From assembly GCF_044324785.1 (NCBI RefSeq), contig NZ_CP172128.1: a stretch of 64,000 nt of DNA; one strand, 5' to 3'. The stretch is from Escherichia coli (GTDB taxonomy: Bacteria; Pseudomonadota; Gammaproteobacteria; Enterobacterales; Enterobacteriaceae). This document shows, piece after piece, positions 51,101 through 54,100 of the stretch (positions within the stretch are counted from its first letter, which is position 1; every line of letters begins with the position of its first letter). A program made the position numbers.

Positions 51101-54100
51101 ATGCGCGAGGTTACCGACTGCGGCCTGAGTTTTTTAAGTGACGTAAAATCGTGTTGAGGACAACGCCCATAATGCGGGCTGTTGCCCGGCATCCAACGCC
51201 ATTCATGGCCATATCAATGATTTTCTGGTGCGTACCGGGTTGAGAAGCGGTGTAAGTGAACTGCAGTTGCCATGTTTTACGGCAGTGAGAGCAGAGATAG
51301 CGCTGATGTCCGGCGGTGCTTTTGCCGTTACGCACCACCCCGTCAGTAGCTGAACAGGAGGGACAGCTGATAGAAACAGAAGCCACTGGAGCACCTCAAA
51401 AACACCATCATATACTAAATCAGTAAGTTGGCAGCATCACCCAAGGGGCCAGTCTAGCAGATTATGGTGCGCAGTTATACAACAGCAGTAATGAGGAGTC
51501 TACTATTTCTCTTGTTATGCCAGATGCAATTGAATGGAACGGAAAGAATACGCCAAGACGGCAATACATGATAAAATATATTGCCGTATTTAAATATTAA
51601 AATTTATTTTTGTAGATTATCTGAATTTTCGGTGACCTTCAAGTTTTATATCGTTCATTTTATCCAGAGACTCACGTAATGATTCTATATCCCCGTCCTC
51701 AACTTTCTTTTTTGCAATATTGATTTCATGTTGTAGTTTTTTTAACTCTTCCTTATAACTATCTACAGAAACTTTATCATTAACATCTATCTTTTCAGGA
51801 ATAATATTCATAGAAGAATCTACAGATTTATCCATCATTTCAAGAGCATTTAATAGTGATGATTTATCATTGGAAGATTGTAGAATACTCATACTTTTGG
51901 CAAGAGACTGCATGTTTTTATCCAGGCCGGAAGCCAAAGATACGTTGCTGAGAGATAAAAAAATAGCTAGTACAGCACCTGAGAAAAATACCTTTTGTTT
52001 TTTCATTAATATATTCCTGTTCAAAGTTGATTATAGTTATGTCAATTTAAGTTTATTATTATGATTTTTTATTTTTGTACTATGAATCTCCTGTATGCTT
52101 ATATGTGCAGAAAATCTCATTTTATCAAGAAGAATATCAAATTTTCTCCGATACTTCTACATACTCCATCATTCATGCTCCTTTTATCCGTGCACCGTAA
52201 AACCCCGTCCTTCAGCGGGGATATAAGGCGCTGTTTTCCACCTAACCAGGTGTCTGCTGCTATTCAATGTATTGGCGGATGACGGATGCCGCCCGTTGAA
52301 GCAGGAACCCTCGTCCTTAGGGCGTGGAGGATGTCAAAATGAAAACTTGTGGTATGAATCAATCCATTCATCATCCTTTCGGATCATTGCATTCAGTATA
52401 ACGCTGGAAGAGCCTGGCAATATCACTGTATTGATGGTATTACGCCATGAATTGCTTATTTCTTAAATACGACATGCACCACAGACAGGCTTTTCCTATA
52501 CCATCGGAACGAGCGGCAAGAAATAACTTGGTGGCGTGTTTATGTTCGCGCATTGGCTTTTTAAGCAATTTACCTCTGTTCAATAACGGCAATGCCAGAT
52601 GATGTGGAATATAACCAATACCGACGTTTTGTTCTATTAAGCTGATTGCCATGGCGAAGTCAGGAACAAAAATAGGTTTTTGTCCTTCCAACAACCAGGC
52701 TTGCATTGGGGGGAAGTTAACGGAGGTATCCCGGATACAAACCGCAGGATAATGACGCAATTCACTGTTTTCTAATGGATTCCGCTTCACTGCCAGTGGA
52801 TGAAGTGGGCTGACGACAAAATCCCATTCTATTTGTCCGACCGGTTCGCTAATGATGCCTTCACTGCTTGGTACTGCATGAGGAGCACCGTAGACCAGAT
52901 CAGCACGTTTACTGTACAGCGCATCCCAGCAGCCGTTGTATACTTCAATATCTACCGTCAGTGTTGTTGATGTGAATTGCCGTTCAAAATCTTGAATAAA
53001 TGACACCAGAAAATCACCAGGTATAATATTGTTCACCGCAATTGTCAGTTCACGCTCAATACCATCGTGAATCAGCACTGTGTTGCGCTTTAATGCATCC
53101 AGATCGCGGAGAATATTTTTGCTATGTTCGATGAAGTAACTCCCCGCCGGAGATAATTCAATATATCGTCCCTTACGAATGAACAGTTCAACGCCCAGGG
53201 TTTCTTCCGCTTTCTTCAGGGTGTAACTGATAGTAGAAGGGACTTTATTTAACTGTTCGGCTGCGGTGGTGATGTTCTGGTGTCTGGCGACCAGATGAAT
53301 AATTCGAATCGTTTCGTCTGAGATGAACATAAGGCTCCCTGGTCAGTGGTAAAGTGGCTGAATCTCTCCAGATTCAGCCGTAATCATTGCCTGAGTATAC
53401 CCAGGAATTAGCGGTGTTGACTTGCCCGACTGAGAATCGCATACGCGATACATGCCACCAGAATGGAGTCAACTGAAGGGATCGTCGTCAGGGTGAATAA
53501 GCCTTTTACGGTCATAAAGCCAACCGCTGTGCCTGTGATCCATGCAGCGAATGTCAGTACTTTAACCTGTGACTCCTGAGTTAACACCGACTCTTGATAG
53601 CCATTACGGCGATAAAGGAAAAAGTCAGCGATATAAATTCCGGCAACTGGGGGAGTCGCGATACCCAGGAACAGCAGAAACGGAATAAACCACGCCATAA
53701 TATCCATACTGCCTACGATGGCGGAAAGGATACCCAGCGCAACGGTAATCTGCCATTTGGGAAAGCGGCTAAGCAGTGTGGAAACTACCAACGTCCCCTG
53801 GAACATATTGCCCGCATTACCGGTGACGCAGGCGAATATCAGCAACAGTGCTGCAGGCATAACCGCACCGAATACTGCCATAGCATTCAGTAAAGAGCCC
53901 TGGCCGCTAATGGCACTCGGCGTTGCACCCGCCCAGTATAGCAGAGGGTAGGCAACCAGAAACGTCATACCTGCGGCAATCAGAGCATGTTTTCGGTTAT
54001 GTACAAAACTACCGAAGTCGGGAAGTGTAGCAACCAGAACAATAATAGTGCCAACAACGGTGGAAACGGCGACACCTGTACTCATCTCCGCTATCGCTGC

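What the first reader, a model, noticed from the sequence alone, without database searches (positions are those of the whole stretch)
51617..52024. Secreted cytochrome b562-like protein gene between IS1 and the island repeat
A low-GC gene encodes a signal-peptide-bearing four-helix-bundle protein alignable to CybC, including the regions around the Met and His heme ligands. Such accessory b562 paralogs on mobile DNA are poorly characterised.
Basis: partly seen in the sequence, partly recalled or inferred. Interest (0 to 1): 0.3.

Follow-up and report, generated by a model that had tools for sequence, protein, structure and literature searches.

The report
Plasmid-borne orphan cytochrome b562 gene
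This is a real, intact gene for a small secreted haem-type four-helix protein of the cytochrome b562 family. It sits alone between insertion sequences on a poultry E. coli plasmid, public databases already name it cytochrome b562, and its job has never been tested.

Summary
It has a Sec-type signal peptide and a 104-aa mature domain.

- **Family match:** it passes Pfam's Cytochrom_B562 threshold (55.7 bits against 30).
- **Haem ligands:** both axial ligands are kept at CybC's spacing (mature Met7, and His five residues from the C-terminus).
- **Fold:** the predicted four-helix bundle superposes on solved b562 structures (TM 0.90, 1.3-1.4 Å).
- **Not CybC itself:** it shares 19% identity with CybC and falls below the NCBIfam CybC equivalog cut-off.

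It belongs to a low-GC (31.5%) lineage found in 152 of 5,426 complete E. coli genomes, mostly on poultry-associated IncF plasmids. RefSeq already names it "cytochrome b562".

Its sister lineage (41-46% identity, clade bootstrap 100%) is L7018-type b562. Three of the four sister-lineage copies examined lie 38-43 nt downstream of a signal-peptide-bearing catalase-peroxidase, among them L7018 behind katP on pO157. No peroxidase gene or remnant is in this window. The gene appears to have its own promoter region and terminator hairpin, and is under purifying selection (dN/dS about 0.26).

Most likely it is a periplasmic b-haem one-electron carrier that lacks the peroxidase gene found next to most of its relatives. 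It is an ordinary, already-annotated family member of low interest. The recurring peroxidase-b562 pairing is the only point worth following up.

The parts
51617..52006 (-). CDS for the cytochrome b562-family precursor, 129 aa, stop TAA at 51619..51617.
   Evidence: ORF list. RefSeq CDS of the same length and sequence, WP_032354229.1. Pfam PF07361 at 55.7 bits, above the cut-off of 30. dN/dS 0.26 against the 80%-identical allele.
51932..52006 (-). Sec signal peptide, residues 1-25: MKKQKVFFSGAVLAIFLSLSNVSLA, with predicted cleavage SLA|SG.
   Evidence: Read directly from the sequence: basic n-region, 15-residue hydrophobic core, small residues at -3 and -1. It aligns with CybC's signal peptide and its SFA|AD cleavage site. 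There is no Cys, so no lipobox and no CXXCH. No signal-peptide predictor was available.
51911..51913 (-). Codon for Met32 (mature Met7), the predicted axial haem ligand.
   Evidence: Invariant column in alignment A1 and aligned with CybC Met7.
51632..51634 (-). Codon for His125 (mature His100, fifth residue from the C-terminus, as His102 is in CybC), the predicted axial haem ligand.
   Evidence: Invariant column in alignment A1 and aligned with CybC His102.
52007..52103 (-). Upstream region with the RBS (AGGA, 52018..52015) and promoter-like hexamers: TATAAT at 52035..52030, and TTCATA-17-CATAAT at 52086..52058.
   Evidence: Nucleotide homology with the 80%-identical chromosomal allele (L003) starts here and goes no further upstream (sequences). 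Promoter-like site, which is not enriched over shuffles. Promoter function is inferred.
51558..51587 (-). Hairpin 30 nt after the stop codon (ACGGCAATA ... TATTGCCGT), a likely terminator.
   Evidence: Sequence. The L003 allele keeps a hairpin at the same place with a changed stem (ATACGGCAAA ... TTTGCCGTAT) followed by a T-rich tail. Homology with L003 ends just beyond it, at 51555.
50674..51442 (-). IS1 copy that bounds the gene on its 3' side. It is identical and inverted relative to a second copy at 47085..47853.
   Evidence: Self-BLAST shows 769 bp at 100% identity. RefSeq annotates it as an IS1A-family transposase.
52205..52338 (.). The 134-bp 'island repeat' on the gene's 5' side. The second copy is at 60891..61024. 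Together the two copies bracket the LysR-to-cysteine-hydrolase catabolic cluster.
   Evidence: Self-BLAST at 97.8% identity. No Rfam family match. No fold stronger than shuffled sequence, z = 0.28. Its nature is unexplained and it is not part of the b562 gene unit.

Best explanation
The gene encodes a periplasmic, non-covalently haem-binding four-helix-bundle cytochrome of the b562 family.

Proposed mechanism: the precursor is exported by Sec and cleaved after Ala25. The 104-residue mature protein binds one haem b between the helix ends through Met7(S) and His100(N), and acts as a soluble one-electron carrier.

It belongs to a low-GC, mobile-DNA-borne lineage. The sister lineage is L7018-type b562, and most of its examined copies are encoded directly behind a periplasmic catalase-peroxidase, as L7018 is behind katP on pO157. 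Here the gene is a stand-alone unit of about 550 bp (own promoter region, CDS, terminator hairpin), stranded between IS1 and a catabolic gene cluster on an avian E. coli IncF plasmid, with no peroxidase gene beside it.

Shown: the gene is real, it belongs to the family, the ligand residues are conserved, the fold is predicted, its distribution is known, it is under purifying selection, and it is sister to the kat-linked clade.

Inferred: export, haem binding, and electron-carrier activity. Any role in peroxide defence is also inferred; if real, it would need a partner encoded elsewhere or a chromosomal redox partner.
For: - **Family and fold:** Pfam PF07361 55.7 bits, above GA 30, full-length match. 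The best PDB sequence hits are all b562. The AF2 four-helix model has pLDDT 85. Foldseek's top 50 PDB matches are all b562 or b562 fusions, TMt 0.9, rmsd 1.3-1.5 Å.
- **Ligands:** Met32 and His125 are invariant among 20 family members. Other conserved columns are L55, P70, L91, M58 and Y84. There is no Cys, so no c-type attachment (sequence).
- **Functional constraint:** dN/dS is 0.26 overall and 0.23 for the mature part against the 80%-nt allele. The gene is intact in 170 of 171 matching records, from 152 genomes.
- **Own expression signals:** these are conserved between the two alleles.
- **Relatives:** an exhaustive search finds the nearest full-length relative at 44% identity, and everything else at 34% or less. 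That relative, the pO157 gene and the RM8082 gene each lie 38-43 nt after a signal-peptide-bearing KatG-type peroxidase. The window lineage and this kat-linked lineage form a clade with 100% bootstrap. Two more distant b562 lineages are also kat-adjacent.
- **Literature:** Y. pestis katY-cybC-cybB was shown to be one transcript (PMC2231364). pO157 L7018 is detected as a protein and is 6.3-fold higher in piglets (PMC3686733).
Against: - Haem binding, export and expression were not and cannot be tested here.
- Identity to the characterised CybC is only 19%, and the NCBIfam CybC equivalog score is half its cut-off.
- No catalase-peroxidase gene or remnant lies in the 64-kb window, so the partner suggested by relatives is absent locally.
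- Truncated copies exist (P0035, P0050, H87), and every context is IS-rich. This fits a dispensable passenger.
- To my knowledge, even canonical CybC has no established physiological role.
- Among 9 sampled family representatives only 3 are kat-adjacent, so the pairing is recurrent but not universal.
- The fourth sister-lineage copy, on a Salmonella plasmid, has no adjacent peroxidase.
Confidence: 0.75

Rival explanations
1. Stranded passenger. The gene is a leftover of a katP-b562-type module, or of some other island, that IS activity separated from its partner. It may still fold and bind haem but contributes nothing to its present hosts, and it persists by hitch-hiking on successful poultry plasmids.
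For: - Every context is an IS mosaic: IS1 on the plasmid, IS2 and IS1 on a chromosome, ISEc12 on another island.
- Truncated forms are common in draft assemblies (P0035 98 aa, P0050 86 aa; H87).
- It is present in only 2.8% of complete E. coli genomes.
- Three of the four sister-lineage copies examined (pO157, RM8082, L004) sit next to a peroxidase, which is missing here.
Against: - dN/dS of 0.23-0.26 between alleles that differ at 20% of nucleotides shows long-term purifying selection on the protein.
- The promoter region and terminator hairpin are co-conserved with the CDS.
- The window lineage is sister to the kat-linked clade, not nested within it, so descent from a kat-linked gene is not demonstrated.
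- Orphan b562 genes are common elsewhere, in the F leading region, an ICE and chromosomes, and CybC itself is one.
Confidence: 0.2
2. A b562-fold protein that uses the bundle for something other than electron transfer. Examples would be periplasmic haem buffering or scavenging linked to the plasmid's iron-uptake cargo, or a non-haem role.
For: - A putative iron/siderophore-type ABC transporter (substrate-binding protein, FecCD permease, ATPase, MFS) lies 5-9 kb away on the same plasmid.
- The Y. pestis proteomics table marks CybC as Fur-associated and changed under iron starvation (PMC2835676).
- The lineage is very divergent from CybC, at 19% identity.
Against: - The transporter is separated from the gene by two IS1 copies and has a very different composition (60-69% GC against 31%), so the neighbourhood is accidental.
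- Retention of exactly the Met/His pair and the conserved pocket columns is what a low-spin six-coordinate redox haem needs. A scavenger or a non-haem protein would not need it.
- No family other than b562 matches.
Confidence: 0.05
3. Chance ORF or pseudogene in AT-rich DNA: not a functional gene at all.
For: AT-rich intergenic-looking surroundings. The promoter-like matches are no more frequent than in shuffled sequence.
Against: - A full-length family match above Pfam's curated threshold.
- A confident four-helix model.
- Purifying selection.
- An open frame of 135 codons at 31% GC has a chance probability of about 2e-5 per start (my arithmetic).
- The sequence is conserved in 152 genomes.
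Confidence: 0.01

Closest known systems
E. coli soluble cytochrome b562 (CybC; PDB 256B, 1QPU; Salmonella 4ER9)
   Same: - Sec signal peptide followed by a mature domain of about 105 residues.
- Up-down-up-down four-helix bundle; the model superposes at TM 0.9 and 1.3-1.5 Å.
- Axial Met at mature position 7 and axial His five residues from the C-terminus.
- No cysteines.
   Different: - Only 19% identity.
- Fails the NCBIfam CybC equivalog cut-off, 65.7 against 130.
- Two-residue shorter loop between helices 2 and 3 (alignment).
- 31.5% GC.
- Located on plasmids and islands rather than at the chromosomal cybC locus.
pO157 L7018-type 'putative cytochrome b562 family protein' (WP_001172748.1) and its relatives on other STEC, E. 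albertii and Salmonella plasmids
   Same: - Nearest lineage: 41-46% identity, clade bootstrap 100%.
- Same length and the same shortened loop.
- Shared motifs ILQSS, SM..LPEKI and EGH.KFR (alignment).
- Low GC of 30-38%.
- Carried on IncF virulence plasmids.
   Different: - L7018 and two other copies (RM8082, L004) lie 38-43 nt downstream of a periplasmic catalase-peroxidase (katP on pO157), with a G+C-rich intercistronic hairpin.
- The window gene has no peroxidase neighbour or remnant. Its upstream region has no detected similarity to theirs: BLAST matches to the kat-linked loci stay inside the coding sequence.
- The window lineage is sister to this group, not a member of it.
Yersinia pestis katY-cybC-cybB operon
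   Same: It pairs a KatG-type catalase-peroxidase with a b562 gene. This is the pattern seen in the window gene's relatives, and it was shown by RT-PCR to be one transcript (PMC2231364).
   Different: - It also includes the membrane cytochrome b561 gene cybB.
- It is chromosomal.
- I did not compare the Yersinia CybC sequence here.
- No such operon partners are in the window.

Membership tests
Cytochrome b562 family (Pfam PF07361) | Sequence match to the family profile above the curated gathering score, over the full domain | tested here: met
   55.7 bits against a cut-off of 30; protein residues 28-129 match profile positions 2-102 of 102.
Cytochrome b562 family (Pfam PF07361) | Axial haem ligands Met7 and His102 (CybC numbering) present at the equivalent positions | tested here: met
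   Met32 and His125 of the precursor are invariant columns in a 20-sequence alignment that includes CybC and align with the ligands in the PDB pairwise alignments. Mature Met is at position 7 and His is fifth from the C-terminus.
Cytochrome b562 family (Pfam PF07361) | Four-helix bundle of about 106 residues | tested here: met
   AF2 model with helices at 24-44, 48-66, 78-103 and 107-128, pLDDT 85. Foldseek against PDB gives b562 entries at TMt 0.89-0.92 and rmsd 1.2-1.5 Å. This is a prediction, not a solved structure.
Cytochrome b562 family (Pfam PF07361) | Periplasmic location through a cleavable Sec signal peptide | tested here: inconclusive
   The sequence has a canonical n/h/c organisation with SLA|SG, aligned to CybC's signal peptide. 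No signal-peptide predictor or experiment was available.
Cytochrome b562 family (Pfam PF07361) | Binds one non-covalent haem b, with a reduced alpha band near 562 nm | not testable with these tools
   Needs expression and spectroscopy. The absence of Cys or CXXCH is consistent with non-covalent haem (sequence).
CybC orthologue (NCBIfam NF011632, equivalog) | Score at or above the equivalog cut-off of 130 bits | tested here: not met
   65.7 bits and 19% identity to CybC. It is a paralogous lineage, not CybC.
Peroxidase-linked b562 module (katP-L7018 type; katY-cybC-cybB) | b562 gene immediately downstream of a signal-peptide-bearing KatG-type catalase-peroxidase | tested here: not met
   tblastn with the L004 peroxidase finds nothing significant in the window (best E 0.75). 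The upstream neighbours are the 134-bp repeat and a LysR gene.
Peroxidase-linked b562 module (katP-L7018 type; katY-cybC-cybB) | Sequence affinity to the peroxidase-linked b562 proteins | tested here: met
   41-46% identity. Joint clade at 100% bootstrap, with the window lineage as sister group.

The most novel reading that the evidence does not exclude
The recurring pairing of signal-peptide-bearing KatG-type catalase-peroxidases with a b562 gene is seen in pO157 katP-L7018, RM8082, three further loci and Y. pestis katY-cybC-cybB. It may mean that b562 proteins are the physiological electron donors of periplasmic catalase-peroxidases. That would give a role to a model protein whose function has, to my knowledge, never been settled.

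On this reading the window gene would be a free-standing variant. It could serve a peroxidase or another periplasmic oxidant-defence enzyme encoded elsewhere in avian pathogenic E. coli.
Probability: 0.12. Interest if true: 0.45.

Novelty: already known. Interest (0 to 1): 0.15.

Why it matters
For this window it matters little. The gene is a correctly annotated but uncharacterised accessory cytochrome carried by poultry-associated E. coli plasmids and islands.

The useful by-product is a testable lead. The closest relatives, and two more distant b562 lineages, sit directly behind periplasmic catalase-peroxidases such as the EHEC plasmid factor KatP. This suggests that soluble b562 cytochromes feed electrons to periplasmic peroxide defence.

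If that were shown, it would explain why such genes travel on virulence plasmids. It would also give a physiological role to a protein known mainly as a folding and engineering model.

Tried and rejected
1. **katP remnant next to the gene.** tblastn with a 737-aa relative-linked peroxidase found nothing in the window, in L001-L003 or in the Salmonella plasmid locus.

2. **Ancient functional link to the adjacent AllF/AllG/carbamate-kinase/permease/LysR cluster.** Proteins P0039 (77% identity) and P0032 (81%) lie behind the same cluster, which at first looked like conserved synteny across divergence. At nucleotide level L020 is 98.8% and L021 100% identical to the window over the cluster, with indels or an NN scaffold gap. 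They are therefore the same unit with assembly noise, not independent evidence. The 80%-identical allele lacks the cluster altogether. Rejected.

3. **The 134-bp repeat as a structured RNA or regulatory leader for the gene.** No Rfam family matches and the fold is no better than shuffled sequence (z 0.28). The repeat is not retained by the second allele. Left unexplained.

4. **Sigma-70 promoter and terminator scan.** The hits are no more frequent than in shuffles. Only conservation between the two alleles supports the signals.

5. **Literature.** Searches for a functional study of the plasmid b562, or of a b562-catalase-peroxidase partnership, found only the Y. pestis operon note and a proteomic detection of L7018.

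6. **Word-indexed homologue search.** It returned only E. coli and Klebsiella near-copies. The exhaustive search and tblastn against plasmids were needed to find the katP-linked relatives.
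Full report
**1. What is at the coordinates**

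The minus strand carries an ORF at 51617..52024, 135 codons from a TTG. The likelier start is the ATG at 52006. It has an AGGA 8 nt upstream (52018..52015; sequence) and gives a 129-aa product.

RefSeq annotates this same 390-nt CDS on identical plasmid DNA as WP_032354229.1, "cytochrome b562". The CDS is 31.5% GC in a window that averages 50.3% (profile). At that composition about 7.8% of random codons are stops, so a 135-codon open frame has a chance probability near 2e-5 per start (my arithmetic).

An IS1 copy (50674..51442) abuts the 3' side; it is identical and inverted relative to another copy at 47085..47853. A 134-bp direct repeat (52205..52338 = 60891..61024, 97.8% identity) lies on the 5' side.

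**2. Family assignment**

- Pfam's Cytochrom_B562 model matches residues 28-129 over profile positions 2-102 of 102, at 55.7 bits against a gathering cut-off of 30.
- The NCBIfam equivalog model for CybC matches end to end, but at 65.7 bits against a cut-off of 130.
- Against PDB sequences the ten best-scoring chains are all soluble cytochrome b562 or fusions of it, but weakly (best E = 1.2e-3).

The protein is therefore a family member but not a CybC orthologue. Identity to CybC is 19%.

**3. Ligands and fold**

Only five columns are invariant. Two of them are Met32 and His125, which align with CybC's axial ligands Met7 and His102.

After the predicted cleavage (SLA|SG) the mature protein begins SGLDKNM. 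The Met is thus at mature position 7, and the His is the fifth residue from the C-terminus, exactly as in CybC. The other conserved columns (L55, M58, P70, Y84, L91) coincide with positions I recall as lining the CybC haem pocket. That recollection is a lead, not a test.

There is no cysteine, so neither a lipobox nor a c-type CXXCH site is possible.

AlphaFold2 on this alignment gives four helices (24-44, 48-66, 78-103, 107-128) at mean pLDDT 85. Foldseek against PDB returns only b562 entries and b562 fusions among the top 50, with target-normalised TM 0.89-0.92 and rmsd 1.2-1.5 Å over about 104 residues.

**4. Where the window comes from and how the gene is distributed**

The window is an IncFII-type plasmid of poultry-associated E. 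coli. It starts at repA and matches pLH10-b-1-A and similar plasmids at 98-100% identity.

The CDS is found in 171 records from 152 of 5,426 complete E. coli genomes. There are 128 plasmid and 47 chromosomal places, and it is full-length in 170 records. Most hosts listed are chickens, ducks, turkeys or humans.

There are two allele groups. The plasmid type is at least 95% identical. A chromosomal type is about 80% identical in DNA and 71% in protein, and sits on a decayed island beside ISEc12 (L003). A chromosomal copy of the plasmid type lies between IS2 and IS1 (L002).

Nucleotide homology between the two allele groups runs only from 97 nt upstream of the ATG to about 60 nt past the stop (window 52103..51555). 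The conserved unit is therefore about 550 bp. It comprises a promoter-like AT-rich leader with the RBS, the CDS, and a hairpin 30 nt after the stop. Both alleles keep a stem at that position although the stem sequence differs.

dN/dS between the alleles is 0.26 (NG86; 0.23 for the mature part). This indicates purifying selection on the protein.

**5. Relatives elsewhere**

The word-indexed search found only E. coli copies and one Klebsiella near-copy, all named cytochrome b562 where named at all.

The exhaustive search of 1.84 billion representatives shows an isolated lineage. One full-length relative is at 44% identity, a few fragments are at 49-57%, and everything else is at 25-34%.

The 44% relative lies 38 nt downstream of a 737-aa KatG-type peroxidase that carries an N-terminal signal peptide (L004). 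tblastn against PLSDB found 581 plasmids with a match. Of these, 494 have copies below 60% identity, and the ones listed are at 41-46%.

- On pO157 of EDL933 this copy is the gene right after katP (L005).
- On p1RM8082 it follows a katG-type gene (L007).
- On a Salmonella IncF plasmid it stands alone, 1.7 kb from sodC, with no peroxidase remnant.

An NJ tree of mature regions joins the window lineage and these kat-linked genes at 100% bootstrap. The window lineage is sister to the kat-linked group (86% bootstrap), not nested within it. They share a loop shortened by two residues and several motifs.

I sampled nine 50%-cluster representatives for context:

- three are directly downstream of signal-peptide-bearing peroxidases (P0057, P0066, P0080);
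- three are orphans in mobile DNA (F leading region, a TraG-bearing element, an IS-rich region);
- two are chromosomal orphans;
- one is uninformative.

All five peroxidases I examined have signal peptides. Four of the five spacers carry a G+C-rich hairpin whose sequence varies while its pairing is kept.

**6. Literature**

Y. pestis katY-cybC-cybB was predicted as an operon from co-expression and confirmed as one transcript by RT-PCR (PMC2231364).

pO157 L7018, described as a "putative cytochrome b562 family protein", was detected by proteomics in an O157:H7 strain and was 6.3-fold more abundant in gnotobiotic piglets than in vitro (PMC3686733).

I found no functional study of any plasmid b562. 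I also found no paper in the held library proposing b562 as a donor to periplasmic catalase-peroxidase.

**7. How it most likely works**

Shown here:

- a real, selected, family-typical gene with both haem ligands;
- a predicted b562 fold;
- its own conserved flanking signals.

Inferred:

- Sec export and cleavage after Ala25;
- binding of one non-covalent haem b through Met and His;
- one-electron shuttling in the periplasm.

By association with its sister lineage and with the Yersinia operon, the family's natural partner may be a periplasmic catalase-peroxidase. No such gene or remnant exists in this window, so here the protein lacks that neighbour.

It could work with something encoded elsewhere, or it could be a tolerated passenger. 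Purifying selection and the conserved expression signals argue for retained function. The uniformly IS-ridden contexts, the truncated copies and the 2.8% prevalence argue that it is dispensable.

**8. A lead that failed**

Two apparently divergent copies (77% and 81% protein identity) lie behind the same AllF/AllG/carbamate-kinase/permease/LysR cluster as in the window. That would have suggested a conserved functional link.

At DNA level those loci are 98.8-100% identical to the window, with frameshifts or an NN gap. They are the same unit with assembly noise. The second allele lacks the cluster. The adjacency is a single historical arrangement, not evidence of shared function.

**9. Verdict**

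I rate it as already known and of low interest (0.15). The modest lead is the recurrent periplasmic peroxidase-b562 pairing, which would be cheap to test biochemically.

Noticed in passing
window 52205-52338 and 60891-61024: A 134-bp direct repeat (97.8% identity) brackets the 8.5-kb minus-strand cluster at 52440-60678. The cluster runs cysteine hydrolase, DUF2877, FdrA/AllF-like, DUF1116/AllG-like, carbamate kinase, allophanate-hydrolase C-domain protein, cytosine permease, LysR. The repeat has no Rfam match and folds no better than shuffled sequence. Its origin (att-like site, duplication or recombination scar) is unexplained.
   Followed up: partly
window 52440-60678: This plasmid-borne catabolic cluster resembles the E. 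coli allF/allG/allH/allK (fdrA-ylbE-ylbF-ybcF) oxamate/carbamoyl-phosphate branch, with an added permease, amidase-type hydrolase and LysR regulator. Its substrate is unknown. It sits next to an IncI1 nikB fragment at 61077-62663.
   Followed up: no
window 47085-47853 and 50674-51442: Two 100%-identical IS1 copies in inverted orientation bracket an endonuclease/exonuclease/phosphatase-family gene (48308-49171) and an IS3-family orfB remnant (49607-50512). The layout resembles a composite transposon.
   Followed up: partly
window 42792-46832: A block of 60-69% GC, far above the window mean of 50%, encodes an ABC substrate-binding protein, a FecCD permease, an ATPase and an MFS transporter. From memory this resembles the eitABCD iron-uptake genes of avian E. 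coli plasmids.
   Followed up: no
L004 7960-8003; L005 5949-5997; L007 5956-6003; L008 3945-4003: In four of the five peroxidase-b562 spacers examined (38-53 nt; the 28-nt L010 spacer lacks one), there is a G+C-rich hairpin whose sequence differs between lineages while its pairing is kept (for example CAGGGGGAG..TCCCCCTG and GAGGGAGG..CCTCCCTC). It could be a conserved mRNA-processing or attenuation element.
   Followed up: no
L011 4001-4384; L017 4001-4390; L015 4001-4381: Other b562-family genes are orphan cargo on mobile DNA. One lies in an F-type plasmid leading region between an SLT gene and psiA/psiB. One is in a TraG_N-bearing conjugative element. One is in an IS-rich region. b562 genes seem to be recurrent passengers of conjugative elements.
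   Followed up: partly
L006 3812-6375 (Salmonella plasmid pCFSAN060804): The 46%-identical b562 copy lies 1.7 kb from a plasmid-borne periplasmic Cu/Zn superoxide dismutase gene (sodC), with no peroxidase remnant between them. This is another association with periplasmic oxidant defence.
   Followed up: partly
window 25607-35309 and L002 527-8118: A raffinose/sucrose-type sugar cluster (LacI-type regulator, alpha-galactosidase, MFS transporter, GH32 hydrolase, carbohydrate porin) is on the plasmid. In strain PK8275 it also sits on the chromosome directly beside the b562 gene and an IS2. This suggests these pieces travel together between plasmids and islands.
   Followed up: no
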